Notes: generated by a model not told the origin, from the sequence alone. A stretch of DNA of 64,000 nucleotides from an uncultured Alphaproteobacteria bacterium (GCA_963793985.1 CAWCCG010000008.1:25707-89706); one strand, 5' to 3'; numbered from the stretch's first letter, positions 33,331-52,638 are shown. A program made the numbers and translations.

Positions 33331-34166
33331 ATGAGTGATGACATCGCATCCCTCGTAGAAGGCTCCGAGCCTAGCAGGCACCGGCGAGACGCGCTGCTAC
33401 GTCCGCATGTGACGGTTCGCGGGCTCACCAAGCGGTTCGGCGCGAGCTTACGTCTACGACGGCTTCGATCTCGACATTCCCCGCGGCGAGCTCGTTTCGA
33501 TCTTCGGGCCGAACGGCTGCGGCAAGAGCACGCTGATCAACATGATCGCCGGGCTCGTGCCCGCCGATGCCGGCAAGGTGCTGTTCGACGGCAAGCCGAT
33601 CCGCGAAATCTCGTTCGGCTACGTGTTTCAGAACTACCGGGAAGCGCTGTTCCCGTGGCTGCGCGCGTTCGACAACATCGCAGTATCCGCTCCGATTCAG
33701 GAACATCGCGCCCCGCGAGCGGCGCGACCGCGTCGAGCGGCTGATCGCCCATCTCGGCGTCACCCTCGACTTCAATCGCTATCCTTACGAGCTCTCGGGC
33801 GGCCAGCAGCAGCTCGTGTCGATCATGCGCGCGCTCGTCGTCGAGCCGGAAATCCTGTTTCTCGACGAGCCGTTCTCGGCACTCGACTACGAGATGACGC
33901 TCTACATGCGCGAGCAGCTCCAGCGCATCTTCATGGAAAGCGGCACCACGACGCTCCTCGTCTCGCACGATCTCGAGGAGGCGGTGTTTCTCGCCGACCG
34001 CGTGCTGCTGCTCTCCCGCGGCCCGGCGCGGATCGCCGCCTATCCGTCCTACAAGGCGCCGCGACCGCGCACCGGTGCCACGCTGTCGGAGCCGGAGTTC
34101 GTGGCGCTGAAGTCGCACTGCCTCGAGATTTTCCAGCGCGAGGTGCGCGCGAAGCCGCAGCCGTGA
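33331..34166 (+). pseudogene. ABC transporter ATP-binding protein (NitT/TauT family), frameshifted
   Basis: Walker A (GPNGCGKSTL), Q-loop (VFQNYREALFPW), signature (LSGGQQQ), Walker B (ILFLDEPFSALD) and H-loop (LLVSHD). The N-terminal third is spread over three frames. No cognate permease is on this strand. Confidence 0.85.
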
Positions 34167-38269: not shown

Positions 38270-38387
38270 GAGCGGCGCGGATCCAGCCGCACGGCAGGCG
38301 CCGTGCCGGGCGACGCATGCACGGCGCGGCCACACTTCAGGCATTCCATGCTTGCAACGGCTCGGGACCTCGGGCGATATCAGGGCA

Positions 38388-40730
38388 ATGACGACGCGGT
38401 ATTTCGGCGCCCCGACGAAGCGCAACGAGGATCCCCGGCTGCTGCGCGGCCGCGCCCTGTTCGTCGACGACGTCGCGCTGCCGAACCTCGCGCATGCGGC
38501 GTTCCTGCGCAGCGCGGTCGCCCACGGGCGCATCCGGGGCATCGACGCCGAGGCGGCGCGACGGCGCGACGGCGTCATCGCGGTCTACACGGCGGAGGAC
38601 CTCGGCGCCTACTGGAAGCCGGGACCGCTGCTGGTGCCGCCGCCCCCGATCCCGGGCATCACCTTCAACCTGCGCACCCATGTTCCGCTCGCCAAGGACA
38701 AGGTGCGCCATGTCGGCGAGCCGCTGGCGATCGTCATCGCGCGCAGCCGCCACGTCGCCGAGGATGCGCTGGCCGACATCGTGGTCGACATCGATCCGCT
38801 CCCCGCCGTCGTCGATCTCGAAGGCGCGCTCGCGGCGGGATCGGCGCTGGTCCATGACGACCTCGGCACCAACGTCGCGGCCCACGTCCGCCAGACCAAG
38901 GGCGATTACGCGAAGGCGGCGGCACGGGCCGCGCATGTGATCAAGCGGCGCTTCCTCTACGACCGCGGCGCCTCCTCGCCGATCGAGACGCGCGGCATCG
39001 TCGCCAACTGGGACGCGCGGGCGGACCAGCTCACCGTGTGGGACACCACGCAGGCGCCGGTGTTCCTGCGCGGCGGCCTCGCCGGAATGCTGGGCCTGAG
39101 CGAACGCCAGGTGCGGGTGATCGCGCCCTTCGTCGGCGGCGGGTTCGGCCCCAAGATCATGCTGTTCTATCCGGAAGAAGTGCTGCTGCCGTGGGCGGCG
39201 ATCCGGCTCGGCCAGCCGATCAAGTGGATCGAGGACCGGCGCGAGCACTTCTTTGCCACCACCCATGAGCGCGGCCAGATTCACGACGCCGAGATCGCGC
39301 TCGACCGCGACGGCCGCATCCTCGGCGTCAAGGACGTGTTCCTGCACGACGGCGGCGCCTATGACCCTTATGGGCTCACGGTGCCGATCAACAGCCAGTG
39401 CACCCTGCTCGGGCCCTATGTGGTGCCGAACTACGACAGCACCTTCACCGCCGTCTTCACCAACAAGCCGATCGTCACCCCCTATCGCGGCGCCGGGCGC
39501 CAGCACGGGGTGTTCGTCATCGAACGGCTGCTCGACCTCGCGGCGCGCGAGCTCGGGATCGACCGCGCCGAAATCCGCCGGCGCAATTTCATCCCGGCCG
39601 ACGCGTTTCCCTACGACAACGAGCTCATCTACCAGGACTTCACGCGGCTCTCCTACGACAGCGGCAATTACGAGCCGATCCTCGATCGGGCGCTGGAGCT
39701 CATCGGCTACGAGGCCTTCCGCAAGGACGAGCAGCCGCGCCTGAAGGCGCAAGGGCGCCACGTCGGCCTCGGCATCGCCTGCTATGTCGAGGGCACCGGG
39801 ATCGGCCCCTATGAGGGCGCCAAGATCCAGGTGCAGGCGAGCGGCAAGGTGAGCCTCGCCACCGGCATCGGCACCCAGGGCCAGGGGCATTTCACGAGCT
39901 TCGCCCAGATCGCGGCCGACCAGGTCGGCGTCGACGTCCGCGACATCGACGTCGTCACCGGCGACACCGATCAGTTCTACTGGGGCGCCGGCACCTTCGC
40001 GAGCCGCGGCGCCGTGGTGGCGGGCACCGCGGTCTACGAGGCCGGCAAGGCGGTGCGCGAGAAAATCCTGCGGCTCGCGTCCGAACACTTCGAATGCGCC
40101 GAGGAGGACCTCGAGCTCGCCGACGGCAAGGTCTCGATCGCCGGCGTGCCCGGCAAGTCGGTCCGCCTCGGCGAACTCGCCATGAAGGCGAACCCGATGC
40201 GCGGGGCGGTGCGCCCGGGCGCCGAGCCGGGGCTCGAGTCCACCAAGTATTTCGGGCCGCCGTCGGGAGCGACGGCGAGCGGCGTCCACGCGATGATCAT
40301 CGAGGTCGATCCGGAGACGCTCGCGATCGAAATCCGCAAATACGTCGTGGTGCACGACTGCGGCACGGTGATCAATCCGATGATCCTCGCCGGCCAGATT
40401 CATGGCGGCGTGGCGCAGGGCATCGGCAACGCGTTCTTCGAGAAGCTCGTGTTCGACGCCGAGGGGCAGTTGCTCAACGCCACGCTCGCCGACTACCTGC
40501 TGCCCTCCTCGACCGACGTGCCAAACATGGAGCTCGCGCACACCGTGACCAAATCGCCGCTCAATCCGCTCGGCATCAAGGGGGCCGGCGAGGCCGGCGC
40601 CATACCGGTCGGGCCGCTGTTCGCCCAGGCGATCGAGGACGCGCTCGATCTCGGCGCGCACGGCGTCGAGATCCTGGAGATACCGTTGAGCCCGGCGCGA
40701 CTCTGGCAGCTCGCGACCAAGTCGCGATGA
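38388..40730 (+). CDS. Xanthine dehydrogenase / aldehyde oxidase / CoxL-family molybdopterin-binding subunit
   Basis: Intact, 780 aa. MTTRYFGAPTKRNEDPRLLRGRALFVDDV, RFLYDRGASSPIETRG, GGGFGPK, YRGAGRQHG, GTGIGPYEG, GQGHFTSFAQIAAD, GTFASRG, NPLGIKGAGEAG. No [2Fe-2S] or FAD subunit gene is adjacent. Confidence 0.9.
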   Translation: MTTRYFGAPTKRNEDPRLLRGRALFVDDVALPNLAHAAFLRSAVAHGRIRGIDAEAARRRDGVIAVYTAEDLGAYWKPGPLLVPPPPIPGITFNLRTHVPLAKDKVRHVGEPLAIVIARSRHVAEDALADIVVDIDPLPAVVDLEGALAAGSALVHDDLGTNVAAHVRQTKGDYAKAAARAAHVIKRRFLYDRGASSPIETRGIVANWDARADQLTVWDTTQAPVFLRGGLAGMLGLSERQVRVIAPFVGGGFGPKIMLFYPEEVLLPWAAIRLGQPIKWIEDRREHFFATTHERGQIHDAEIALDRDGRILGVKDVFLHDGGAYDPYGLTVPINSQCTLLGPYVVPNYDSTFTAVFTNKPIVTPYRGAGRQHGVFVIERLLDLAARELGIDRAEIRRRNFIPADAFPYDNELIYQDFTRLSYDSGNYEPILDRALELIGYEAFRKDEQPRLKAQGRHVGLGIACYVEGTGIGPYEGAKIQVQASGKVSLATGIGTQGQGHFTSFAQIAADQVGVDVRDIDVVTGDTDQFYWGAGTFASRGAVVAGTAVYEAGKAVREKILRLASEHFECAEEDLELADGKVSIAGVPGKSVRLGELAMKANPMRGAVRPGAEPGLESTKYFGPPSGATASGVHAMIIEVDPETLAIEIRKYVVVHDCGTVINPMILAGQIHGGVAQGIGNAFFEKLVFDAEGQLLNATLADYLLPSSTDVPNMELAHTVTKSPLNPLGIKGAGEAGAIPVGPLFAQAIEDALDLGAHGVEILEIPLSPARLWQLATKSR

Positions 40731-41595
40731 TCCTCGTCACCGGAGCGGCCGGCAAGACCGGCATGGCGGTCATCGGGGCCTTGGCCGCGCGCGGCGCCGC
40801 GGTGCGCGCTCTGGTCCGTCATCGCCGACCGGTCGGCCGCGGTCGCCGCGCAGGGCGCCCACGAGATTGCGGTCGGCGCCTTCGAAGATGCCGCCGCGCT
40901 CGCCGCAGCGGCGGACGGGGCCCGCGCGATCTATCACATCTGCCCGAACGTGAGCCCGCACGAGATAGCCTACGCCCGGGCCGTGATCGCCGCGGCGAAG
41001 GCGGCCGGCGTTCCGCGCTTCGTCTATCACTCCGTGCTGCACCCGCAGATCGAGGCGATGCCGCACCACTGGGCGAAGCTCAGGGTCGAGGAGCTGCTGC
41101 TCACGTCCGGCCTCGCGGTGACGGTCCTCCAGCCGACCGCCTACATGCAGAACATCCTGGCGGGCTGGCGCTCGATCGTCGAGGACGGCGTCTATCGCGT
41201 GCCCTACCCGGTCGCCACGCGGATCAGCCTCGTCGATCTGCGCGACGTGGCCGAGGCCGCCGCGCGCGTCCTCACCGAGGACGGCCATGTCGGCGCGACC
41301 TACGAGCTGGTCGGCACCCCTGCCCTGACCCAGACCGAGGTCGCCGAAACCTTGAGCCTCGCGCATCGGGCGGCCGGTGCGCGCGGTCGCGGAAACCGTC
41401 GAAGCCTGGGAGAGCCGCGCCCGCGCCGCGGGCATGGGCGATTACCAGCGCGAGACCTTGGCCGCCATGTTCCGCAGCTACGCCGCCCATGGTCTCGTCG
41501 GCAACGCCAACGTTCTCACTTGGCTCCTGGGACGCAGTCCGACCACGCTTGCCGCAGTTCGCGGCGGACGCGTCGCGCGGAGCGGTCAGCTATAG
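40727..41595 (+). pseudogene. NmrA-like / atypical SDR NAD(P)-binding protein, frameshifted
   Basis: ATGA overlap with the XDH-family stop. MILVTGAAGKTGMAVIGALAARGAAVRALVR (Rossmann), then IYHICPNVSPHEIAYARAVIAAAKAAGVPRFVYHSVLHPQ, LQPTAYMQN, YELVG. Frame changes near 40830 and 41370. Confidence 0.75.
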
Positions 41596-43015
41596 GGCGG
41601 CCAGCCGATCGGGTTCGCCTGCTGCACGAGCTTCGCGACCGAGAGGATCAGCGGCTCCTCGAACCGCGGCGCGACGATCTGCAGACCGACCGGCAAGCCC
41701 GTCCGCGGTCTTGCCGGCGGGAACGCTGCCGGCCGGCAGGCCGACCAGCGTCACCAGAAACGCCGGGGCGATCCAATCGATGTAGTTCTCGAGACGGCGG
41801 CCGGCGACCTCGGTCGGAAAGTTCATCTCGATCGGGATAAGGCTTCACCGGCGCGGCGGGCGTGAGCAGGACATCGAAGCGCTCGAACAGACTCGCGGAA
41901 GCGGTGAAACACCGCGAGCCGTGCCGCCTCCGCCGCCGCGAGATCGGCGGCAGTGACCGCGAGGCCGCGCTCGACACTGCCGCGAAGATTTTCGCCGAAT
42001 TCGGCGAGCCGCCCGAGACGCGCGTGCTGTTGCCCCACCATCCAGGCGCCGCGCCAGACCTGGTAGGGGTCGCGGCCCTCCGACACATCGAACGCGATCT
42101 CCTCGACCGTCGCGCCGGCATCTGCCGAGACGCTCGCGCCCCGGCGCGGCAGATCTCGTCGATCTCGGGATCGACGCCGATGCCGGCGATGTCGGCAGCG
42201 TAGGCGATGCGCAGGCCCCGGCGCATCGCTCGTGCCGGCGACGACCTCGCGCGCGCTGCGCCACGGCGGCGCGACCGAGATCGGCGACAGGCGGCTCAAT
42301 CCCACCATCGCGTCCAGCATCAGCGCCGCATCCTCGGCGCTGCGGGCGAGCGGGCCGTGGACCTGGCCGGGGTCCCAGCCGAGCGGCATCGGATGGTTCG
42401 GCGTCAGCCCCGGCGTCGGCCGGATTCCGACGATGCCGCAGAACGCCGCGGGAATGCGGATCGACGAGCCGAAGTCGGTGCCCTGGGCGAGCGGCAGCAT
42501 GCCTGACGCGACCGCGACCGCCGAGCCGCCCGACGACCCCGCCGGCGACAGCGCGGGGTTCCAGGGATTGCGGGTCGCACCGAACACCGCGTTGACGGTG
42601 TTGGCGCCGGTCGCGAATTCCGGCGTGTTGGTCTTGGCGAGCAGGATGGCGCCGGCGGCCTTGAGGCGGCGGACCACTTCGGCGTCCTCCACCGGGACGA
42701 AGTCGGCATGAGAGCGGCGATCCGTAGGTGGTGCGGATGCCGGCGGTCTCGGTGACGTCCTTGACGCCGAAGGGCAGGCCTTCGAGCGAGCCCTGTCGGC
42801 TCGCCCGCCATGATCCTGGCTTCGGCGCGGCGCGCGGCCTCGCGGGCCGTGTCGGCGGCGAGAGTGACGATCGCATTGAGGCGGGGGTTGAGGCGCGCGA
42901 TGGCCGCGAGATGCGCGTCGAGCACCTCGACCGGGCTCACCGCCCGCGCGCGCATCATCGCGGCGAGCTCGACGGCGGACTTCCGCGTCAGTGCCTCGTC
43001 GGCGGTCGCCATCAC
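41586..43015 (-). pseudogene. Amidase-signature family amidase, multiply frameshifted
   Basis: LEGLPFGVKDVTETAGIRTTYGS, AILLAKTNTPEFATGANTVN, NPWNPALSPAGSSGGSAVAVASG (Gly/Ser-rich AS signature), GTDFGSSIRIPAAFCG, LLTPAAPVKPYP, GLPAGSVPAG, and a tail ending IGWPPYS. At least 7 frame changes by eye. Its start overlaps the permease stop. Confidence 0.8.
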
Positions 43016-43764
43016 TTTCCCGACCAGTGGACGAACCGCCGCTCGATCAGGAGGAACATCAGGTTCAGCCCGTAGCCCAGCGCGCCGGCGGCGAAGATCG
43101 CGGCATACATGTCGGGCATCGCGAACAATTGCTGCGCCTCGAACACGCGCTGGCCGAGCCCGTCGGTCGAGCCGATGAACATCTCCGCCACCACGACGAT
43201 GACGAGGGCGAGCGACACGCCGTTGCGCAGCCCGACGAAGGTCTGCGGCAGCGATTCCATCAGCATGACGTCGAGGAGCACCTGCAGCCGCGAGGCGCCC
43301 ATCGCCTTCGCGGCGAGAAGCCGCGTCTTGCGCGCGTTCATCACGCCATAGGCGACGTTGAACAGGATGACGAGCGCCGCACCGAACGCCGCGACCGAAA
43401 TCTTGGTGCGGTCGCCGACCCCGAACAGCACGAGGAACAGCGGGAACAGCGCCGAGGCCGGCGTCGAGCGGAAGAAGTCGATGACGAACTCGACCGAGCG
43501 GTAGACCGGCAGCGACGCGCCGAGCACGATGCCGAGCGGGATCGCGATCACCGCCGCGATCAGCGTCGCAAGCGCGGTACGCTCGACCGTGATGACGAAG
43601 TCATGGCCGAGCTGTCCGCCGAACCCCTTCCACATGGCGCGGAACGTATCGGCCGGCGACGGCAGCAGCACGGGATCGATGACCTTGCTCCACACCGCGA
43701 TCCACCACAGCGCGATCAGCCCGATGACGCCGACCACCGGCAGGAAGGGTTCGAGGCGTTTCAT
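43012..43764 (-). CDS. ABC transporter permease (NitT/TauT family)
   Basis: Intact. MKRLEPFLPVVGVIGLIALWW, EAA-type loop NARKTRLLAAKAMGASRLQVLLDVMLMESLPQ, six hydrophobic helices. Confidence 0.85.
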   Translation of the reverse strand: MKRLEPFLPVVGVIGLIALWWIAVWSKVIDPVLLPSPADTFRAMWKGFGGQLGHDFVITVERTALATLIAAVIAIPLGIVLGASLPVYRSVEFVIDFFRSTPASALFPLFLVLFGVGDRTKISVAAFGAALVILFNVAYGVMNARKTRLLAAKAMGASRLQVLLDVMLMESLPQTFVGLRNGVSLALVIVVVAEMFIGSTDGLGQRVFEAQQLFAMPDMYAAIFAAGALGYGLNLMFLLIERRFVHWSGK

Positions 43765-43784
43765 GGTGCGCGTCTGCACCTAGC

Positions 43785-43923
43785 GTCATTCCGGGGCAGT
43801 GCCAACGGGTCCGGCCTTTGGCCGGCCCGATGACAGGCTCCGCACTGAACCCGGAATCCAGACATGGCAGCTCGCCCCACTGCCTGGATTCCGGGTTCGC
43901 GCTGACGCGCGCCCCGGAATGAC
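43785..43923. repeat. Nested-hairpin intergenic repeat (Bradyrhizobiaceae REP-like element)
   Basis: Outer perfect 13-bp inverted repeat GTCATTCCGGGGC / GCCCCGGAATGAC. Inner perfect 15-bp inverted repeat GAACCCGGAATCCAG / CTGGATTCCGGGTTC. Also a CCGGCCTTTGGCCGG hairpin. It lies between the binding-protein and permease genes. Confidence 0.6.
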
Positions 43924-43950
43924 GGCGGAGCGCGGTGCCGCGCGCCCACT

Positions 43951-44923
43951 TCAGAACACCTGGATGAACTTGTTCACGTCGACCTTCTCCGGCAGCGTGC
44001 CTGCGGTCACCGAGAAATCGATGAACTTCTGATAGTCCGCGCGGTCCTTCGGCGTGAGATCGCGCGCCATGAAGAAGCGGAGCAGCGGCACGGTGTCGGC
44101 GACGTCCTCGGGCGTGAAGGTGTTCTTGACGAGGTGCTTGCGCGCCTCGGCCGGATTGGTGTTGATGAAATCGATCGCCTTCGCCCAGGCCGCGGCGAAG
44201 CGCTTGGCGACATCCGGGCGCGCCTTGATGAAGTCGCTCGACATTGCGCATCCCCCGGCGAAGGCGTTGGCGTCGGGATCGCCGAGCACGTACCGGGCAA
44301 TGACACCGGCCTCGAGGGTGGTGGCGACTCCAAGCTTGCGCATGGTCGACGCGTTCGGCTCGAGCGTGTAGCCGGCATCGAACGTGCCGGCGGTCATCAC
44401 GTTGACGTGCTGGCCCATGTCGAGCTGGTCGATCGTGTAGTCGCCCTCTTTGAGGCCGACGGCCGCCAATACCGCTTTGGCCATGGTGACGTTGGCGGGC
44501 CCCGGCGCCGACATGATCTTGGCGCCCTTGAGGTCCTTCAGGCTCGTCGCCTTGAAGCCCCTGCGGACGACGAATTGCTCCATAGGGTAGGTGCGGTTCT
44601 GGCCGTTGAGCGAGATGTACATCGCGACGCCGGGCTTCTTGAGATCGGCGTTGATGCCCTCGATGGTCACCAGCACCGCGGAGACATCGATCTGGTTGGT
44701 GATCAGCGCCGCGACGTTCGGCGGGCCGCCGATCAGCCGCGTCATCTCCGGCGACGATGTTCTGCTCCTTGAAGAAGCCGCGCTCCAGCGCGACGAAATA
44801 CGGCAGCGAAGAGCTGACCGGGAACACGCCGACATTCACCTTGTCCTGCGCCATCGCCGGGGCTGCGCCGAACGCCGCGGCACAGAGCACGGCGGCGAGA
44901 AGCGCGCGCCGAGGACGGGACAT
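43951..44923 (-). pseudogene. ABC substrate-binding protein (NitT/TauT family), one frame change
   Basis: Signal MSRPRRALLAAVLCAAAFGAAPAMA. Then VNVGVFPVSSSLPYFVALERGFFKEQNI, a shift near 44750, then the rest in ORF 43951-44835 (LKDLKGAKIMSAPGPANVTMAKAVL). Confidence 0.8.
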
Positions 44924-45017
44924 GCGGTGTGCTCATCATGGCCTCCTGCAGGAATTGCCACGGCCGCGGGCGGCCGACATCATTCTCCGACGTCGACTTC
45001 ACTCTGCGACGTCGGCC

Positions 45018-46112
45018 TCATTCGCCGACATCGACTATTGCAATGACCGGGCCACCACCCTGCGGTCCCTGGTGCATGGCGTCGACCGACACGAACACGG
45101 CGGGATCGCCGATCGCCGCCGCGGCGACGCCGCCGACCGCGGCCTTGGAATGGCGGTGGTGATGGACGTCGGAATCGTCGAGCATGATCTGGCGGCGTCC
45201 CCGCAAGGTGCCGCGGTGGTCGGCCTCGCATTTCATGAAGCAGTTGACGACGCGGCCCTTGAGGTCCTCGGCCCGCGGCCGCTCGGGAAGCTCGAGGCCG
45301 GCGTTGCGGATGGCGTCGTAGATGCCGTCGATGTCGATGGCGTCGCGCATCACCGCATGGCCGATGCGGTAGCGGCCGCCGGCGCCCGCCTTGTTGCCGA
45401 GCAGCACGATCTGCGCCTGGACGAGCTCGACGCCCGAGGAGCACGACGCCACCGACGAATAGAGATCGAGGTCGCGGCAGATCTGCTCGGCGCGCGGCAT
45501 CGCGGTTTCCCCGAGCGCGACGGCGATGCCGAGCGCCGTCGTGCCGTTCGAGACACCCATCGAGTCGTGCACCTCGCAGGCGACGTGCTTGCCCCGGCTC
45601 TCGGCGTCGCGCACGGAATCGATGGTCAGCAGCGGCGTCTTGGTCTGGACGTAATGCACGTCCTTCGGATCGGAGATGCCGGCGTCGGCCATCGCGAGCT
45701 TCACGGCGGCCGCGACCTTCTCCACCATGGCGGGCCGGCCGATGTCCTCCGGCAGCAGCTCCTCGCTCAGCGCCGTGCCCATGGCGAGGCGCGGCGCGTT
45801 GGCCGGCCCGGTCTTGGCGTTGCGCGCGAACACCGTCGCATGCGGGGTGATGACGCCGTCGCAGCCGCCCGACCACACCATCGGGATCTGGTGGATGTCG
45901 GCCTCGCCGCGGGTGCCGAGCTTGAGCAGGATGCGGCGGAACGCCTGGTCGGCGAGAATGCGGGTGAAGTCGTTGACCCCGCCATTCCCTTCGGTCTTGC
46001 CGATCACGGCGATCACTTCGTCGGCCTTGAACTGTCCGGCCGCGATCCGCTCGGCGAGACCGCTCGCGTCCTGGACATTCTTCAGCTCGATTTTCGCGAC
46101 TTCGATCGCCAT
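45018..46112 (-). CDS. Ring-opening amidohydrolase of the cyanuric acid hydrolase (AtzD/TrzD) / barbiturase family
   Basis: Intact, 364 aa. [19 protein letters not shown] is the family hallmark (AtzD has GKTEGNGCVND). The three-fold internal repeat architecture is suggested by recurring Ser/Lys-containing segments ([28 protein letters not shown]). The substrate cannot be told from the sequence. Confidence 0.85.
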
Positions 46113-46136
46113 TCTCGTCTTGCTCCGCAGAATTGC

Positions 46137-48051
46137 TCAGCGCATGCGCGGCGCAAATTCGCCGCGCAGCATTTTCGTAAAACCGGTGCCGCGATCGATC
46201 ATCGACGGCGGACCCGTGCGTTGCGCACGCAAGGCGGCGCGCCGCTCGGCCGTGGCCGGCCTCGTCGACGGCGACATCCGCAGTCCCCACGCCCGCGGTG
46301 CCTGCGTCCGCGAATACCACACCGTAATCGTCGCGCGCGCGATCGAGCGAGACGCGCCCCTCGACGACGTCGGCGAGCACCAGCGCCGGCTCGCGCTCGA
46401 GCGGATCGCCCCAGCCGCCGCCGCCGGTCGTGACGACGCGCACGATCTGGCCCTTGAGCACGGGCTCGCCATCGACGAGGCCGCCGAGCTCGCGCGCCTC
46501 GCCCTCGAGGTCGACGGTGACGCAGAACGGCTCGCCGGCCTTGCCGCCGTTGAGGCCATAGCAGCCGAGCCGCACCCGGTCGGCGGTGACGATGGTGCGG
46601 CAATCGACCAGCGCGCGGTAGTGCTTCTCGTAGCCGAGACCGCCGCGCCGCTTGCCGGCGCCGCCGGAATCGGTGCGCAGCGCGAGCTTCTCCACCAGCA
46701 GCGGGAAACGGGTCTCGGTGAATTCCGCCGGCTGGTTGCGGGAGTCCGGCACGATGTGAATGGCGTCGTTGCCGTCGGCGTAGTAGCGCCCGCCGGAGCC
46801 GCCGCCGAGCACCTCGCGCGACAGGAACGGCTTGCCGGCGGCATCGGTGCCGAAAAAGCCGGTGTAGCGGATGGTCTCCTGGTCGGCCGGCATCCGGCCG
46901 TCGACCGCCTGGGCGACGACGCCTGCCAGGAGCCCGAGGCAGCGCAGCAGCACGAACGAGCGCGCATTGGTGGCCGCCGGCCATTCCGGCGTGATCAGCG
47001 TCCCCTTCGGCGGAAACTTGACCGTGAACACGTCGCAGACGCCTTCGTTGACGTGGATCTCGGCCGCGCGCTCCGGCGTCTCGGCGAGATTGCGCAGGAT
47101 CGGCGCGATCCATTTGATGAGGAACGCGCCGTCGGCGTAATCGGCCGGCCAATTGATCGGACCGGTGGATTGCGGGTCGGTGCCGGTGAAGTCGAGCGTG
47201 ATGCGATCACCGGCCTTGGTCATGGCGAGCGCGATCTTGTGGAGCTTGGGGTCGGTGACCCCGTCGTGCTCGACGTAATCTTCCCAGCGATATTCGCCGT
47301 CGGCGATCCGCGGCAGCAACTCGTCGCGGAAGATGGTGGCGCATTTGTCGAGGATGGTCTGGAAGCAGGCCTCGACCTGGGCGCGGCCGAACCGCTCGAA
47401 CAGCGCGGCCATGCGCTGCGCCCCCATCAGGCAGGCCTGCACCTCGCTGTCGAGGTCGGCGGCGAGCATCTCGGGAACGCGGGTGTTGCGCTTGATGATG
47501 GTGAAGACCGCCTCGTTGCGCACGCCCTCGGCGTAGAGCTTGACCGGCGGGATCGCGAGCCCTTCCTCGAACACCGTGACCGCCGTGCCCGGCATCGAGC
47601 CCGGCACGCGCCCGCCGATGTCGTCATGGTGCCCGAACGCCTGGATGTAGGCGACCACCTCGCCGTCGTGGAACACCGGCACCGTGCTGCAGAGGTCCGG
47701 CAGATGGCCGATGCTGCCTTCGGTGAGGTAGGTGTCGTTCATCAGGAACACGTCGCCGGGACGCATGGTCTCGGGGGGAAAATCGCGCACCACGGCGTTC
47801 GGCATCGCCGAATAGGAGCGGCCGGTGAGCTTGCGGCAGTAGCGGTCGAACAGGCCGACGCGGTAGTCGTGGGCCTCGCGGATCATCGGGCTGCGCGCGG
47901 TGCGCTCGATCGCGTATTCGATCTCGGCCTCGATCGAATTGAGCGTGCCTTCGACGATCTGCAGCACGATCGGGTCGACCGGCGTGTCGTTGCGCCGCTC
48001 AGGGGTCGGCCACGGCTTGGCCGCGGCGGGACTTTGTTGAATATTCATCAC
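46137..48051 (-). pseudogene. hyuB: Hydantoinase B / oxoprolinase family protein, one frame change near the 3' end
   Basis: DPIVLQIVEGTLNSIEAEIEYAIERTARSPMIREAHDYRVGLFD, DVFLMNDTYLTEGSIGHLPD, GGGSGGRYYADGNDAIH, SGGAGKRRGGLGYEK, TTGGGGWGDPLER. A shift near 46260 leads to a tail ending FAPRMR. Confidence 0.85.
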
Positions 48052-50143
48052 GTCGTTCTCGGCGAAGCCTTTGCGGATCGCACGACCAGGATGCCGTGCG
48101 GATCGACCTCCGCGTCCTGGCCCGGAAACACCACCGTCGTCGATCCGAACTCCTCGATCACGGCGGGGCCCGCGAGCCGGGAGCCGGCCGGCAGCGCCGC
48201 GCGATCATAGATCGGCGTATCGCGGAACGCGCCATCGAAAAACACCCCGCGCCGCGATTTCGGCGCGGCCGTTTGCGTCGCTGCTGGCGCGAGCTTCGGC
48301 AGGCTCGGCCGCTCGATCAGCCCGAAGCCGGACACGCAGAAATTCACCAGCTCGACCTTCTGCGCGCCGGCATAATCGTAGCCGAAGGTGCGCCGGTGCA
48401 TGGCATGAAAGGCGTCGATGAGGCCTTCGAGAAACGCCGCGTCGATCGCGCCCGCCGGCGCCGGCACCCGCACTTCCATGGATTGTCCGGCGTAGCGCAG
48501 GTCCGCTTCGCGCATCATGCGCATGCGCGCCGGCGCGATGCCGTCGGCGAGGAGCGTCGCGGTCGCGGCCTGCTCCATCTCCGCATAGGCCGCGGCGATG
48601 GCGTCGAGATCGGCGGCGTCCTCGTGCATGACCTTGGTGCGGATGTGATCGGTGCGCCAGTCGACCGCGAGCAGGCCGAAGGCGCTCAGATTGCCGGGAT
48701 CGAGCGGCACGATGCAGGCCTTCATGCCGAGCAGCTCCATCACCGCCGGCGACTGCGCCGGCCCGGCGCCGCCGAACGAGAGCAGCGCGAAGGCGCGGGG
48801 ATCGATGCCGCGTTGGATGGTCATCTGGCGGATCGCATTGGCCTGGCTCCAGTTCGCGATCTCGATGATGCCGTGGGCGAGCTCCTCCGCGCTCATGTTG
48901 CCGGGGAGCCGACGCGCCAGCGCCGCGAGCCCCGCACGCGCACGATCGGCATCGAGCGCGATGCCGCCGCCGATGAGCGCCGGCGGGATACGTCCGAGCA
49001 CGAGATTGGCATCGGTGATGGTCGGCTCGCTGCCGCCGTTCGGATAGCACATCGGGCCGGGCTCGGCGCCGGCGCTGCGCGGCCCCACCTTGAGGTGGCC
49101 CTCGCGGCGTGAGCCAGGCGATCGACCCGCCGCCGGTGCCGATCGTCTCGATGTCGATCATCGGAATCCGGATCGGAAACGGCCCGACCGATCCCGCATT
49201 CGTCACCTGCGGCTTGCCGCCTTCGATCAGGCAGAGATCGGTCGAGGTGCCGCCGGCATCGAGGGTCACGACGTCGGGAAAGCCGGCGATGCCGGCGATG
49301 ACCGCGCTGCCGAGCGCGCCGGCCGCCGGCCCCGACAAGGCGGTGGTGATCGGCTTGCGCACGACTTCGCTCGCGCTCGCGACCCCGCCGCTCGACTGCA
49401 TCACCAGGAACGGCACGTCCTTGAGCCCCTCGCCCGAGCTCGTCGTGCACGCGCCGGAGATAGCGTTCCATGTGCGGCTTGACGAAAGCGTCGACCAGCG
49501 TCGTCACCGTGCGCTCGTACTCGCGGTATTCCGGCAGGACGGAGGAGGACAGCGACAGCGTCGCCTCCGGGTACTCCTGCGCGACGATCTCGGCGGTACG
49601 CCGCTCATGGGCGGGGTTGGCATAGGAGTGGATCAGCGAAATGCCGATGGCGCGGATGCCGCGCTCGCGGAAGAACCGCGCCGCGGCGCGCACGCTCGCT
49701 TCGTCCAATGGACGCAGCTCTTCGCCCTTGTAGTCGAGCCGGCCGCCGACCTCGCACACGAGGCGCAGCGGCACGATCCGTTCCGGCTTCACCCAGAAAT
49801 ACGAGTTGCCGTAGCCCTCGGGCACCGATTGCCGCGCGATCTCGAGAATGTGGCGGAAGCCCGCGGTGACGATCAGCCCGAGCGAGGAGATCTCACCCTG
49901 CAGCAGCGCGTTGGTGGCGACGGTGGTGCCGTGGGCGAGGCTGGTGACGTCCGCAGCGGCGGCGCCGGCCTTCTCCAGGATCGCCGCTACGCCGCGCACA
50001 AGTCCCACTGCGGGATTCGACGGCGTGCTCGCGACCTTGGTGACCCGCATCGCACCCGAACCGGTGTCGACGGCAACGATGTCGGTGAAGGTCCCGCCGG
50101 TGTCGATGCCGATCCGAAAGCGCGAAGTTCCTGTCTGCGCCAT
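48048..50143 (-). pseudogene. hyuA: Hydantoinase A / oxoprolinase family protein, two frame changes
   Basis: FRIGIDTGGTFTDIVAVD, HGTTVATNALLQ, SLIHSYANPAHE, VMQSSGGV, VTLDAGGTSTDLCLI, IETIGTGGGSIAW, LLSFGGAGP. Shifts near 49430 and 49095. The stop overlaps the hyuB start. Confidence 0.85.
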
Positions 50144-51827: not shown

Positions 51828-51937
51828 TGATCCTCGCCGAGGGTCGCGAGCGGGCGTGTCGCGCGCCGCACGTTGACGGCTCCCAGACGTCGACTTAGCC
51901 TCCATGCTCACTCCGTCAGAGCATGAGGAGGTTCGGC

Positions 51938-52638
51938 ATGCACCGCTATGTCGTTTCCGATGCCGTAAAGACGCGCCTCCTCGAGAGACAAGGCAAGCTC
52001 GCCAGCCGCGACACGATCGATGCCGCGCGCGCGGCGCTGGTCGTCGTCGACATGCAGAACCACTTCGTCGCTCCGGGGTTTCCCGCCGAAGTGCCGCTCG
52101 TCGCGCGAGATCGTGCCGAACATCAATCGCCTGGCGCAGGCGATGCGCGCCGCCGGCGGAACGGTCGTGTGGATTCAGACGACGGCGGCGGGCGGGCTCG
52201 AGGAGTGGAGCAACTACCACCGCCACATGCTCACTCCGGAGCGCCGGCAGAAGCGCCTCGCCAGCCTCGATGAGAGCCGCCGAGGGTTTCAAGCTCTTTC
52301 CGGCGCTCGAGGTGCTGCCGGACGATCTGCGGGTCAAGAAGATCAAGTACAGCGCGTTCATCGCGGGATCGTCGGACATCGACGCGCAGCTCAAGAGCCG
52401 CGGCATCGACAGCGTGCTGATCACCGGCACGGCGACGAACGTGTGCTGCGAATCGAGCGCGCGCGACGCCATGATGCTCGACTACCGCGTGACCATGGTC
52501 TCCGATGGCAACGCCACCTGGACCGACGAGGAGCACGCCGCCACGCTGAACAGCTTCCTGCTGTTCTTCGGGGACGTGATGACGACCGACGAAGCGATCG
52601 CGAAGCTCGTTCCGGTGATGAGCCGCAAGAGCGCGTAA
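51938..52638 (+). pseudogene. Isochorismatase-family cysteine hydrolase, two frame changes
   Basis: AALVVVDMQNHF (catalytic Asp), a shift, NINRLAQAMRAAGGTVVWIQ, a shift, KIKYSAFIAGSSDIDAQLKSRGIDSVLITGTATNVCCESSARDA (Lys and the catalytic Cys in TNVCCES). Confidence 0.75.

What the first reader, a model, noticed from the sequence alone, without database searches (positions are those of the whole stretch)
41586..50143. Operon joining hydantoinase A/B, a cyanuric acid hydrolase/barbiturase homolog, an ABC importer and an amidase: candidate N-heterocycle catabolic pathway
All on the minus strand with short gaps or overlaps are hyuA, hyuB, an intact AtzD/barbiturase-family ring-opening amidohydrolase, a NitT/TauT binding protein, a permease and an amidase-signature enzyme.

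Established chemistry offers two readings.
- s-Triazine route: cyanuric acid hydrolase, then biuret, then allophanate, which is hydrolysed by an amidase-signature enzyme.
- Oxidative pyrimidine route: barbiturase, then ureidomalonate, cleaved by ureidomalonase, which I recall as amidase-signature.

Neither canonical route includes an ATP-dependent hydantoinase/oxoprolinase-type A/B pair. The combination therefore suggests a different or extended cyclic-amide substrate.
Basis: partly seen in the sequence, partly recalled or inferred. Interest (0 to 1): 0.6.

Follow-up and report, generated by a model that had tools for sequence, protein, structure and literature searches.

The report
Barbiturate-route pyrimidine breakdown operon with HyuAB
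This soil alphaproteobacterium carries a conserved gene cluster that most likely imports a pyrimidine and degrades it through barbiturate, and it includes an ATP-dependent ring-opening enzyme pair (HyuAB) whose role in that old, poorly mapped pathway has not been described.

Summary
The six genes are present, in the stated order, on the minus strand. In this assembly hyuA, hyuB, the binding protein and the amidase are broken by at least 13 single-base insertions. These are a genome-wide artefact of this assembly, not gene decay.

The AtzD-family protein is a barbiturase-clade enzyme, not a cyanuric acid hydrolase:
- It scores 502 bits against solved barbiturase 5HWE and 324 bits against the best cyanuric acid hydrolase.
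- It shares a clade (SH-aLRT 94) with the barbiturase representative.
- It has 4 of 5 barbiturase specificity residues and none of the five cyanuric-acid-hydrolase specificity residues.

The order hyuA-hyuB-bar-importer-amidase recurs in most of 80 related loci, nearly all Xanthobacteraceae. It usually faces an NmrA-like gene and a three-subunit XDH-family Mo-hydroxylase. In some genomes one operon reads hyuAB, FAD, FeS, Mo subunit, uracil-permease-like gene, bar. An actinomycete (Embleya) holds the same core set.

The best reading is an oxidative pyrimidine (barbiturate) pathway. It offers candidate genes for uracil dehydrogenase and ureidomalonase, plus an undescribed HyuAB step tied most closely to the Mo-hydroxylase.

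This scan has already noted the HyuAB-barbiturase association several times in actinobacterial DNA. This window is the alphaproteobacterial variant.

The parts
48048..50143 (-). hyuA: the ATP-binding (ASKHA) subunit of an ATP-dependent hydantoinase/lactamase-type enzyme. It is split over three frames by two single-base insertions (~49429, ~49108).
   Evidence: Pfam Hydant_A_N, Hydantoinase_A and Hydant_A_C are spread over three frames. tblastn shows 87-95% identity to intact orthologues. The motifs DTGGTFTD, DAGGT and GAEPGP are present. The best solved match is N-methylhydantoinase at 477 bits.
46137..48051 (-). hyuB: the metal-site subunit. One single-base insertion at ~46259 shifts the last 39 codons, which is why the open frame appears to run on for 1023 aa.
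   Evidence: Pfam Hydantoinase_B scores 457 bits. tblastn against intact orthologues and the indel list locate the break. The Asp62-His116-Asp119-His141 tetrad aligns to CapB Asp41/His99/Asp102/His124 (PMC8453981).
45018..46112 (-). bar: an intact 364-aa cyclic amide hydrolase of the barbiturase clade (protein P0001).
   Evidence: PF09663 matches full length at 469 bits. It scores 502 bits to barbiturase 5HWE against 324 bits to a cyanuric acid hydrolase. Tree placement is, the anchor and the active-site residues.
43951..44946 (-). Periplasmic binding protein of the NMT1/THI5 (SsuA/NitT/TauT) type, with two single-base insertions (~44925, ~44754).
   Evidence: Pfam NMT1. tblastn shows 92-97% identity to the G014 orthologue. 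The indels are listed. Soil contigs omit the base at 44754.
43785..43923 (.). Dispersed nested-hairpin repeat. It occupies the spot where most relatives carry the importer's ATPase gene.
   Evidence: About 100 copies of its ~45-nt core occur in this genome. Summed depth in soil metagenomes is very high. An ATPase gene sits at this position in L031, L072 and L090.
43012..43779 (-). ABC permease (BPD_transp_1), intact.
   Evidence: Pfam. It is 97% identical to the G014 orthologue.
41590..43015 (-). Amidase-signature enzyme, the candidate ureidomalonase (N-malonylurea hydrolase). It is broken by at least 7 insertions.
   Evidence: Pfam Amidase pieces lie in three frames. The indels are listed. 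The catalytic motifs PFGVKDV, GSSGGS and GSSIRIPA are all encoded. The orthologue lies directly after bar in the 10 loci I labelled as lacking hyuAB and the transporter (11 transporter-less, amidase-bearing loci in the automatic tally).
40727..41595 (+). NmrA-like NAD(P)-binding protein, convergent with the operon. It has two frame breaks.
   Evidence: tblastn finds three pieces in different frames. The intact orthologue in L031 matches Pfam NmrA at 100 bits. An orthologue of 47% identity lies in the Embleya island.
38352..40730 (+). XDH-family molybdopterin large subunit, the candidate uracil/thymine dehydrogenase large subunit. The FeS and FAD subunit genes found next to it in relatives are missing here.
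   Evidence: Pfam Ald_Xan_dh_C, MoCoBD_1 and MoCoBD_2. The nearest solved proteins are quinoline 2-oxidoreductase and form-II CoxL at about 500 bits. FeS and FAD genes are adjacent in L031, L090, G200 and G179.
33684..34148 (+). C-terminal half of the displaced ABC ATPase orthologue of this importer. The N-terminal half was not mapped.
   Evidence: tblastn shows 70% identity to the in-operon ATPase of L031, against 38% or less for other ATPases.
51904..52638 (+). Isochorismatase-family hydrolase upstream on the other strand. It may or may not belong to the system.
   Evidence: Pfam Isochorismatase. The NCBIfam RutB match is weak at 60 bits. An isochorismatase gene directly precedes bar in L049.

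Best explanation
This is the alphaproteobacterial (Xanthobacteraceae) form of a gene cluster for taking up a pyrimidine and degrading it oxidatively through barbiturate.

Inferred order of steps:
1. The NMT1-type ABC importer brings in the base. Some relatives also carry a uracil-permease-like NCS2 carrier.
2. The XDH-family Mo-hydroxylase hydroxylates it (uracil to barbiturate, thymine to 5-methylbarbiturate).
3. The barbiturase-clade enzyme opens barbiturate to ureidomalonate.
4. The amidase-signature enzyme cleaves that product (ureidomalonase-like, giving urea plus malonate).

HyuAB is an ATP-dependent cyclic-amide hydrolase that belongs to the same system and is most tightly tied to the Mo-hydroxylase. 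Its step is undescribed. My preferred guess is that it opens a hydroxylase product which barbiturase does not accept, such as 5-methylbarbiturate from thymine.

Status of each claim:
- Shown here: family identities, catalytic residues, barbiturase-clade placement, conservation of gene order, co-occurrence.
- Inferred: every substrate, the role of the amidase, the role of HyuAB.

The broken frames in this window are consensus errors of the assembly, so the operon is presumably functional in the organism.
For: Barbiturase identity:
- 502 bits to solved barbiturase 5HWE against 324 bits to the best cyanuric acid hydrolase.
- It shares an SH-aLRT 94 clade with representative P0123, which scores 685 bits to 5HWE.
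- The residues of the three Ser-Lys dyads and the conserved Arg54-equivalent arginine are present. The published barbiturase signature Asn/His/Lys/Val is matched at 4 of 5 positions (signature from PMC3758960).

Pathway context:
- In L031 the order is LysR, hyuA, hyuB, bar, binding protein, ATPase, permease, amidase. This block faces NmrA, then Mo, FeS and FAD subunits.
- In L090 and G179 one strand reads hyuA, hyuB, FAD, FeS, Mo, uracil-permease-like NCS2, bar.
- bar is followed directly by the amidase in the 10 loci I labelled as lacking hyuAB and the transporter (11 transporter-less, amidase-bearing loci in the automatic tally), one of which (L049) I annotated.
- The Mo subunit is nearest to N-heterocycle hydroxylases such as QorL (501 bits), not to xanthine dehydrogenase (153 bits).

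HyuAB linkage:
- 57 of 74 informative loci carry hyuAB, and in 50 it lies directly upstream of bar.
- HyuB orthologues (80% identity or more) and Bar orthologues occur in the same 11 of 41 relatives. HyuB paralogues are 36% identical or less.
- Embleya (Actinomycetota) holds hyuA (52%), hyuB (63%), NmrA-like (47%), bar (64%), an XDH trio and nucleobase permeases within about 29 kb.
- G200 has hyuA-hyuB-FAD-FeS-Mo (74-78% identity for hyuA, hyuB and the Mo subunit, 59-66% for the FAD and FeS subunits) next to urease genes, and no AtzD-family gene at all.
- The ATP motifs and the metal tetrad are intact.

Artefact.
Against: - No activity has been measured for any protein of this clade.
- The fifth specificity position is Asp, in 120 of 121 close homologues and in all 80 loci. 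Characterised and actinobacterial barbiturases have Ser or Ala there. The true substrate could therefore be a barbiturate analogue.
- In this genome the FeS and FAD subunit genes are not next to the Mo subunit, and no clear orthologue was found elsewhere.
- The amidase matches no characterised subfamily: its best NCBIfam hits are generic and below cut-off.
- Barbiturase-type genes occur without HyuAB: in genome G160 no HyuB was found, and in the 10 bar-amidase loci none lies within the fetched flanks. HyuAB occurs without barbiturase (G200). The two are therefore not obligate partners.
- The classical pathway needs no ATP-dependent step.
Confidence: 0.68

Rival explanations
1. The cluster degrades a related but different N-heterocycle rather than uracil via barbiturate. 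Candidates are an amino- or 5-substituted barbiturate, or a bicyclic base whose two rings are opened in turn by HyuAB and the barbiturase homologue. On this reading the Asp-bearing barbiturase clade has a shifted specificity.
For: - A clade-wide Asp sits at a published specificity position.
- Two ring-opening enzymes travel together.
- The modules are separable: HyuAB plus XDH without bar in G200, next to a luciferase-like monooxygenase and urease; bar plus amidase with three amidohydrolases and no XDH in L049.
- A TRZ/ATZ-type deaminase lies upstream in G002.
Against: - Four of five signature residues, and about 70% overall identity by inspection of the alignment (not computed), match the enzyme shown to act on barbiturate.
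- A uracil-permease-like carrier sits inside the operon in L090 and G179.
- The actinobacterial versions, which have Ala at the fifth position, also carry HyuAB, so the Asp is not what brings HyuAB in.
Confidence: 0.2
2. s-Triazine route: the AtzD-family enzyme is a cyanuric acid hydrolase, and the amidase acts as an AtzE- or AtzF-like carboxybiuret or allophanate hydrolase.
For: - The NCBIfam equivalog model 'cyanuric acid amidohydrolase' scores the orthologue at 452 bits, above its 360-bit cut-off.
- An isochorismatase-family gene (the fold of biuret hydrolase) lies about 1.8 kb upstream.
Against: - None of the five CAH specificity residues (Arg, Thr, Arg, Gly, Gly) is present.
- The protein is closer to barbiturase by about 180 bits.
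- It sits in the barbiturase clade.
- The amidase scores 217 bits against a 461-bit AtzE cut-off and 193 bits against a 487-bit allophanate hydrolase cut-off.
- The genome has a separate CAH-signature paralogue on C51.
Confidence: 0.04
3. The operon is truly decaying in this strain: the frameshifts are real mutations and the pathway is dead here.
For: - At least 13 frame breaks lie within 8.6 kb.
- The in-operon ATPase and the FeS/FAD genes are missing from their usual places.
- rpoB is intact.
Against: - All but one of the breaks are single-base insertions (the other adds 2 bases).
- The same excess of +1 shifts is seen on nearly every contig (about 1470 or more genome-wide) and not in relatives.
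- Catalytic motifs are all preserved.
- Identity to orthologues stays at 87-95% on both sides of each hyuA break.
- Independent contigs lack the inserted bases.
Confidence: 0.05
4. HyuAB is functionally unrelated to the barbiturase route. It would be, for example, an N-methylhydantoinase or 5-oxoprolinase that merely shares a nitrogen-regulated operon.
For: - The best solved match is N-methylhydantoinase.
- HyuAB-less barbiturase loci and a barbiturase-less HyuAB locus both exist.
Against: - This HyuAB subfamily (52-63% identical across phyla, 36% or less to paralogues) is found next to bar and/or the orthologous Mo-hydroxylase in every locus examined.
- hyuA/hyuB overlap, and hyuB and bar are separated by only 27 nt.
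- No creatinine or sarcosine genes were seen nearby.
Confidence: 0.08

Closest known systems
Oxidative pyrimidine pathway of Rhodococcus erythropolis JCM 3132: uracil/thymine dehydrogenase, barbiturase (Bar, PDB 5HWE) and ureidomalonase (Soong et al. 2001, 2002, as cited in PMC3758960)
   Same: - The ring-opening enzyme belongs to the barbiturase clade and has the Asn/His/Lys/Val signature.
- A Mo-hydroxylase and an amidase, suited to the first and third steps, are encoded alongside it.
   Different: - Proteobacterial host.
- Asp at the fifth specificity position.
- A dedicated NMT1-type ABC importer.
- An ATP-dependent HyuAB pair and an NmrA-like protein, neither of which has a place in the described three-step pathway.
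- I found no open paper that assigns genes to the dehydrogenase or to ureidomalonase.
Cyanuric acid hydrolases AtzD/TrzD and the atzDGEHF operon of Pseudomonas sp. ADP
   Same: - The same Toblerone-fold family (PF09663) with three Ser-Lys dyads.
- An amidase-signature enzyme lies downstream.
   Different: - All five CAH specificity residues differ.
- The amidase is not AtzE or AtzF by score.
- I saw no AtzG/AtzH genes in the operon, and did not search for them.
- The genome's own CAH-like paralogue is at another locus.
ATP-dependent lactamases/hydantoinases of the HyuA/HyuB family: N-methylhydantoinase (PDB 7HK5) and caprolactamase CapAB (PDB 6YRA, PMC8453981)
   Same: - Two-subunit architecture.
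- ASKHA ATP motifs in HyuA.
- Asp-His-Asp-His metal site in HyuB.
- No gamma subunit gene, so the enzyme is of the hydrolase type rather than the acetone-carboxylase type.
   Different: - Only 477 and 231 bits to N-methylhydantoinase, and below every NCBIfam equivalog cut-off.
- The genomic partners are a Mo-hydroxylase and a barbiturase, not creatinine or caprolactam genes.
Actinobacterial hyuA-hyuB-CoA-transferase-carbamate kinase-bar clusters, noted earlier in this scan and seen here in Embleya sp. NBC_00888
   Same: The core set is shared: HyuAB, NmrA-like, barbiturase, XDH-family trio and nucleobase permeases.
   Different: - The window has an amidase-signature enzyme and an ABC importer.
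- It has no CoA-transferase III, carbamate-kinase-like gene or CN-hydrolase.
- The fate of the opened ring therefore probably differs: hydrolytic and urea-releasing here.

Membership tests
Cyclic amide hydrolase (AtzD/TrzD/Bar, Toblerone fold, PF09663) | Full-length match to the family model | tested here: met
   PF09663 residues 4-361 match model positions 1-358 of 358 at 469 bits. TIGR02714 scores 483 bits for the orthologue.
Cyclic amide hydrolase (AtzD/TrzD/Bar, Toblerone fold, PF09663) | The residues of the three Ser-Lys dyads (AtzD Lys42, Ser85, Lys162, Ser233, Lys296, Ser344) plus Arg54 | tested here: met
   K39, S81, K158, S225, K294, S342 and R51 are all present. The residue list comes from PMC3758960.
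Barbiturase (class/group VI, EC 3.5.2.1) | Specificity signature Asn194, His324, Lys328, Val348, Ser/Ala349 (Bar numbering) | tested here: inconclusive
   N189, H319, K323 and V343 match. The fifth position is D344, not Ser or Ala, and this is conserved in 120 of 121 close homologues.
Barbiturase (class/group VI, EC 3.5.2.1) | Groups with the characterised barbiturase rather than with cyanuric acid hydrolases | tested here: met
   It lies in an SH-aLRT 94 clade with P0123, inside a 100-supported 19-row clade. P0123 scores 685 bits to 5HWE. The query scores 502 bits to barbiturase against 324 bits to a CAH.
Barbiturase (class/group VI, EC 3.5.2.1) | Hydrolyses barbiturate and is inhibited, not turned over, by cyanurate | not testable with these tools
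   This needs an enzyme assay.
Cyanuric acid hydrolase (EC 3.5.2.15) | Signature Arg195, Thr321, Arg325, Gly345, Gly346 (AtzD numbering) | tested here: not met
   The window protein has N, H, K, V, D. The C51 paralogue and the CAH representatives have R, T, R, G, G.
HyuA/HyuB ATP-dependent hydantoinase/lactamase family | HyuA ATP-binding motifs DxGGTxxD, DxGGT and GxxPGP | tested here: met
   DTGGTFTD, DAGGT and GAEPGP are encoded in the window's three frame pieces and in the intact G002 orthologue. The motifs come from PMC8453981.
HyuA/HyuB ATP-dependent hydantoinase/lactamase family | HyuB Asp-His-Asp-His metal-binding tetrad | tested here: met
   D62, H116, D119 and H141 align with CapB D41, H99, D102 and H124.
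Acetone carboxylase type of the same superfamily | A third small gamma subunit gene and closest similarity to the carboxylases | tested here: not met
   Only 27 nt separate hyuB from bar, so there is no small ORF. Acetone carboxylase scores 239 and 58 bits, against 477 and 231 bits for N-methylhydantoinase.
Amidase signature family (PF01425) | Lys / cis-Ser / Ser catalytic motifs | tested here: met
   PFGVKDV, GSSGGS and GSSIRIPA are encoded in the window. Pfam Amidase matches pieces of the gene.
AtzE (1-carboxybiuret hydrolase) / allophanate hydrolase AtzF | Score above the NCBIfam family cut-off | tested here: not met
   AtzE PRK09201 scores 217 bits against a cut-off of 461. Allophanate hydrolase scores 193 against 487. 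The PDB AtzE entry 6C62 reaches only 142 bits.
Uracil/thymine dehydrogenase (EC 1.17.99.4) as a three-subunit Mo-FeS-FAD hydroxylase | Mo, [2Fe-2S] and FAD subunits encoded together with the barbiturase | tested here: inconclusive
   All three are present in L031, L090, G179 and Embleya. In this window only the Mo subunit is present, and no orthologous FeS or FAD gene was found in the assembly. I know of no reference sequence for the enzyme.

The most novel reading that the evidence does not exclude
HyuAB and the orthologous XDH-family hydroxylase form a functional pair that adds an undescribed ATP-dependent ring-opening step to the oxidative pyrimidine pathway. One possibility is hydrolysis of 5-methylbarbiturate from thymine. 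Another is ATP-driven opening of a hydroxylated ring that barbiturase cannot take. The cluster would also give the first gene assignments for two long-orphan activities: uracil/thymine dehydrogenase and ureidomalonase.
Probability: 0.35. Interest if true: 0.7.

Novelty: new variant of a known kind. Interest (0 to 1): 0.5.

Why it matters
The oxidative (barbiturate) route of pyrimidine breakdown was described biochemically in the 1950s, but as far as I could find only barbiturase has a gene. Close homologues of this barbiturase-clade gene are common in soil metagenome collections, and the cluster recurs in related Xanthobacteraceae assemblies. It places three genes side by side: a candidate uracil/thymine dehydrogenase, barbiturase and a candidate ureidomalonase. 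That makes both orphan enzymes directly testable.

The cluster also shows that an ATP-consuming HyuAB enzyme is a conserved, cross-phylum companion of this route. The textbook three-step scheme may therefore be incomplete.

On the practical side, the NCBIfam equivalog model for cyanuric acid amidohydrolase scores these barbiturase-clade proteins above its cut-off. Automatic annotation may therefore over-count s-triazine degraders in soil.

Tried and rejected
- Literature: no open paper links hyuAB to barbiturase or assigns genes to uracil dehydrogenase or ureidomalonase. Seffernick et al. 2012 (PMC3415516) is not held. The HyuA of the guanidine review is the unrelated E. coli D-hydantoinase.
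- The barbiturase representative P0123 gave only a 4.8-kb contig with no useful context.
- The Nonomuraea locus showed bar alone within 12 kb either side.
- The context of the C51 CAH-like paralogue (rpsI and other unrelated genes) gave no triazine genes.
- rpoB is intact. This at first argued against assembly error, until the genome-wide frame-shift count showed that the errors are real but sparser on average (0.23 per kb) than in this operon.
- The idea that Asp344 goes with HyuAB was rejected. Embleya has Ala there and carries HyuAB, and the HyuAB-less loci also have Asp.
- Obligate HyuAB-barbiturase co-dependence was rejected by G200 and G160.
- The sequencing runs found hold related strains (at most 24% of words) as contigs, not the source sample. 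They show that the insertions are absent from relatives but cannot prove the error directly. No RNA data were obtained, so co-transcription is untested.

Full report
**Observation**

Pfam finds the following:
- The three hydantoinase-A domains, spread over three reading frames.
- Hydantoinase_B.
- A full-length PF09663 (AtzD/TrzD) protein of 364 aa.
- An NMT1-type binding protein.
- A BPD_transp_1 permease.
- Amidase pieces in three frames.

I used intact orthologues from two congeneric genomes (G014, 89% DNA identity; G002) as tblastn queries and as alignment partners. That located every frame break:
- hyuA: two breaks (~49429, ~49108).
- hyuB: one break (~46259). This explains the apparent 1023-aa open frame that runs across the next gene.
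- Binding protein: two breaks (~44925, ~44754).
- Amidase: at least seven breaks.
- All but one are single inserted bases in this genome relative to both relatives; the exception is a 2-base insertion in the amidase (~42133).

The AtzD-family gene and the permease are intact. Gene junctions are tight. hyuA/hyuB overlap as GTGA, hyuB/bar have a 27-nt spacer with GGAG, and permease/amidase overlap as TGATG. The exception is a ~175-nt gap that holds a dispersed repeat.

**Are the frame breaks real?**

I built a reference-free test. A seven-state HMM tracks which codon phase carries the high GC3 signal, and it counts same-strand phase changes of +1 (as an inserted base gives) and of +2.
- It recovers eight of the known breaks in the operon.
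- Genome-wide it finds 2493 '+1' against 1023 '+2' shifts. This is an excess of about 1470, or 0.23 per kb, on both strands and on nearly every one of the 52 contigs.
- The same test gives no excess on 555 kb of short-read or isolate loci (-0.05 per kb) or on 652 kb of other long-read loci of the same family (0.00 per kb).

Other evidence agrees. Contigs from four soil metagenome runs, laid on the region, all omit one base at 44754, 49109 and 49427. Marker completeness is 66% for a 6.4-Mb, 52-contig assembly. Catalytic motifs are preserved in every broken gene.

I conclude that the breaks are consensus errors, as an earlier agent concluded for another operon of this window (note e1-3981572). 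rpoB happens to be clean.

**What the AtzD-family protein is**

- Against solved structures the best match is barbiturase 5HWE at 502 bits. The Moorella cyanuric acid hydrolase scores 324 bits and AtzD 240 bits.
- I built a maximum-likelihood tree of 76 rows: 71 near-full-length representatives from a 1.8-billion-protein library, the window protein, the C51 paralogue and three close homologues. The window protein falls in a 14-row clade (SH-aLRT 94) inside a 19-row clade (100).
- That clade contains P0123, which scores 685 bits to 5HWE and so stands in for the characterised Rhodococcus enzyme.
- Peat et al. 2013 (PMC3758960) list five active-site positions that separate the two specificities. 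Cyanuric acid hydrolases have Arg195/Thr321/Arg325/Gly345/Gly346. Barbiturases have Asn/His/Lys/Val/Ser-or-Ala.
- The window protein has Asn189, His319, Lys323, Val343 and Asp344, together with the residues of all three Ser-Lys dyads and the conserved Arg54-equivalent arginine.
- The Val-Asp pair is present in 120 of 121 close homologues and in all 80 related loci.
- The genome's second family member (contig C51, 41% identical) has the cyanuric-acid-hydrolase signature and matches AtzD best.

The s-triazine reading therefore fails and the barbiturase reading holds. One caveat remains: a clade-specific Asp sits at a specificity position.

The NCBIfam 'cyanuric acid amidohydrolase' equivalog scores the orthologue at 452 bits, above its 360-bit cut-off. 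Automatic naming may therefore mislead.

**The other enzymes**

HyuA and HyuB:
- They match N-methylhydantoinase best (477 and 231 bits). Caprolactamase, acetophenone carboxylase and acetone carboxylase follow.
- All NCBIfam equivalogs are below their cut-offs.
- The ATP motifs and the Asp-His-Asp-His metal site defined for CapAB (PMC8453981) are conserved.
- There is no gamma-subunit gene.

The amidase has the Lys/cis-Ser/Ser motifs. It belongs to no characterised subfamily, and AtzE and allophanate hydrolase score far below their cut-offs.

**Conservation and context**

A scan of one genome per species found 473 relatives. The best 80 (81-92% identical) are almost all Xanthobacteraceae assemblies: Pseudolabrys, Bradyrhizobium, Tardiphaga and Rhodoplanes, including the isolate R. 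tepidamans DSM 9987.

Counts among these loci:
- 57 of 74 informative loci carry hyuAB, and in 50 it lies directly upstream of bar.
- 48 of 60 carry the amidase downstream.
- 45 of 60 carry the importer.

The usual full arrangement, as in L031, is LysR, hyuA, hyuB, bar, binding protein, ABC ATPase, permease, amidase. This block faces an NmrA-like gene followed by the Mo, [2Fe-2S] and FAD subunits of an XDH-family hydroxylase.

The window differs in two respects:
- The in-operon ATPase is replaced by a repeat element. Its 70%-identical orthologue lies at 33684-34148.
- The FeS and FAD genes are not beside the Mo subunit.

Other arrangements:
- In L090 and G179 a single strand reads hyuA, hyuB, FAD, FeS, Mo, an NCS2 carrier whose best match is uracil permease, bar, and then the importer or an amidase.
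- The 10 loci I labelled as lacking hyuAB and the transporter (Pseudolabrys sp. MAGs and unnamed bins) have bar followed by the amidase (11 in the automatic tally). The one I annotated (L049) has no hyuAB or XDH. There bar is preceded by an isochorismatase-family gene, three amidohydrolases and an NMT1-type importer.

The Mo subunit resembles N-heterocycle hydroxylases: quinoline 2-oxidoreductase at 501 bits and form-II CoxL at 500 bits. Xanthine dehydrogenase scores only 153 bits.

**How tightly is HyuAB tied in?**

- Among 41 relatives, HyuB orthologues (80% identity or more) and Bar orthologues (85% or more) occur in exactly the same 11 genomes. All other HyuB hits are 36% identical or less. 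These genomes are kin, so this is not a statistical test.
- An even sample of 250 alphaproteobacterial genomes found three more barbiturase-type genes. G179 is linked to hyuAB. G080 has only a 52% HyuB homologue far away. G160 has none.
- The reciprocal search found G200. This 98%-complete genome has hyuA-hyuB-FAD-FeS-Mo (74-78% identity for hyuA, hyuB and the Mo subunit, 59-66% for the FAD and FeS subunits) beside a luciferase-like monooxygenase and urease genes. It has no AtzD-family gene at all.
- Outside the phylum, Embleya sp. NBC_00888 holds the following within about 29 kb: hyuA (52%), hyuB (63%), an amidohydrolase, an NCS1 permease, a PucR regulator, an NmrA-like gene (47%), a CoA-transferase III, a carbamate-kinase-like gene, bar (64%, Val-Ala), a CN-hydrolase, an XDH trio and an NCS2 permease.

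HyuAB is therefore a conserved but separable companion. Its tightest partner is the Mo-hydroxylase, while bar's tightest partner in Xanthobacteraceae is the amidase.

**Interpretation**

The cluster reads as the oxidative pyrimidine pathway: import, Mo-dependent hydroxylation to barbiturate, ring opening by barbiturase, and amidase cleavage of ureidomalonate. Only the family assignments, residues and linkages are shown here. All substrates are inferred.

HyuAB's step is unknown. It travels with the hydroxylase and can occur without barbiturase. I therefore favour ATP-dependent opening of a hydroxylase product that barbiturase does not accept, for example 5-methylbarbiturate from thymine. My recollection that barbiturase is specific for barbiturate comes from the older literature and was not checked here. 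Alternatives are a bicyclic substrate whose two rings are opened in turn, or a hydantoin-type by-product.

**Relation to earlier notes of this scan**

Several earlier reports on actinobacterial DNA describe the same HyuAB-barbiturase association, with CoA-transferase and carbamate kinase. I treated them as leads and checked the core claim on the Embleya record only.

**Verdict**

- This is a new variant of a known kind of system.
- Interest is moderate, because the unexplained HyuAB step and two orphan-enzyme candidates become directly testable.

Noticed in passing
window 43785-43923 (core ~43884-43930): This is a dispersed nested-hairpin repeat. Its ~45-nt core occurs about 100 times in this genome and has very high summed depth in four soil metagenome runs. 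Here it sits where relatives carry the importer's ATPase gene.
   Followed up: partly
whole genome G000 (all 52 contigs): There is a genome-wide excess of +1 reading-frame shifts: 2493 against 1023, or about 0.23 per kb. This indicates roughly 1500 or more single-base insertion errors. Any 'pseudogene' call in this assembly is suspect.
   Followed up: yes
L013:10571-11665 (orthologue of window 45018-46112): The NCBIfam equivalog NF052395 'cyanuric acid amidohydrolase' scores this barbiturase-clade protein at 452 bits, above its 360-bit cut-off. No barbiturase-specific model appeared among the hits. Such genes are likely to be auto-annotated as cyanuric acid hydrolases.
   Followed up: partly
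G000 contig C51:161460-162533 (L099:9001-10098, minus strand): A second AtzD-family paralogue (41% identical) carries the cyanuric-acid-hydrolase signature R/T/R/G/G and lies next to rpsI. No triazine-pathway genes were seen nearby. It shows Glu at the Lys162-equivalent column, which may be another assembly error.
   Followed up: partly
L104 (G200:C8:54000-73900): This 98%-complete alphaproteobacterial genome has no AtzD-family gene. It does carry hyuA-hyuB-FAD-FeS-Mo orthologues in one operon. They are flanked by a luciferase-like (RutA-family fold) monooxygenase, urease genes and a Peripla_BP_6 ABC importer.
   Followed up: partly
L049:2699-12513: This is the one annotated example of a HyuAB-less, XDH-less locus type. 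Its order is Amidohydro_3, ABC ATPase, permease, NMT1 binding protein, Amidohydro_1, Amidohydro_2 (the decarboxylase/hydratase family that includes isoorotate decarboxylase), isochorismatase, bar, amidase. It may feed barbiturate-type rings by hydrolytic rather than oxidative steps.
   Followed up: no
L103 (Embleya sp. NBC_00888, NZ_CP108785.1:2152000-2188000): This 5.7-Mb actinomycete replicon is filed as a 'plasmid'. It holds a ~29-kb nucleobase-catabolic island with hyuAB, PucR, NmrA-like, CoA-transferase III, a carbamate-kinase-like gene, bar, a CN-hydrolase, an XDH trio, and NCS1 and NCS2 permeases. The held (PLSDB) gene table lists no features for this stretch.
   Followed up: partly
window 38352-41595: The XDH-family Mo subunit stands without adjacent FeS or FAD subunit genes, although relatives have them. 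No clear orthologue of either was found elsewhere in the assembly. The translationally coupled NmrA-like gene has two frame breaks.
   Followed up: partly
G015 (C4:273714-275609 and C11:162159-163251): In this one congeneric genome the HyuB orthologue and the (frame-split) bar orthologue lie on different contigs. In the other congeners they are adjacent.
   Followed up: no
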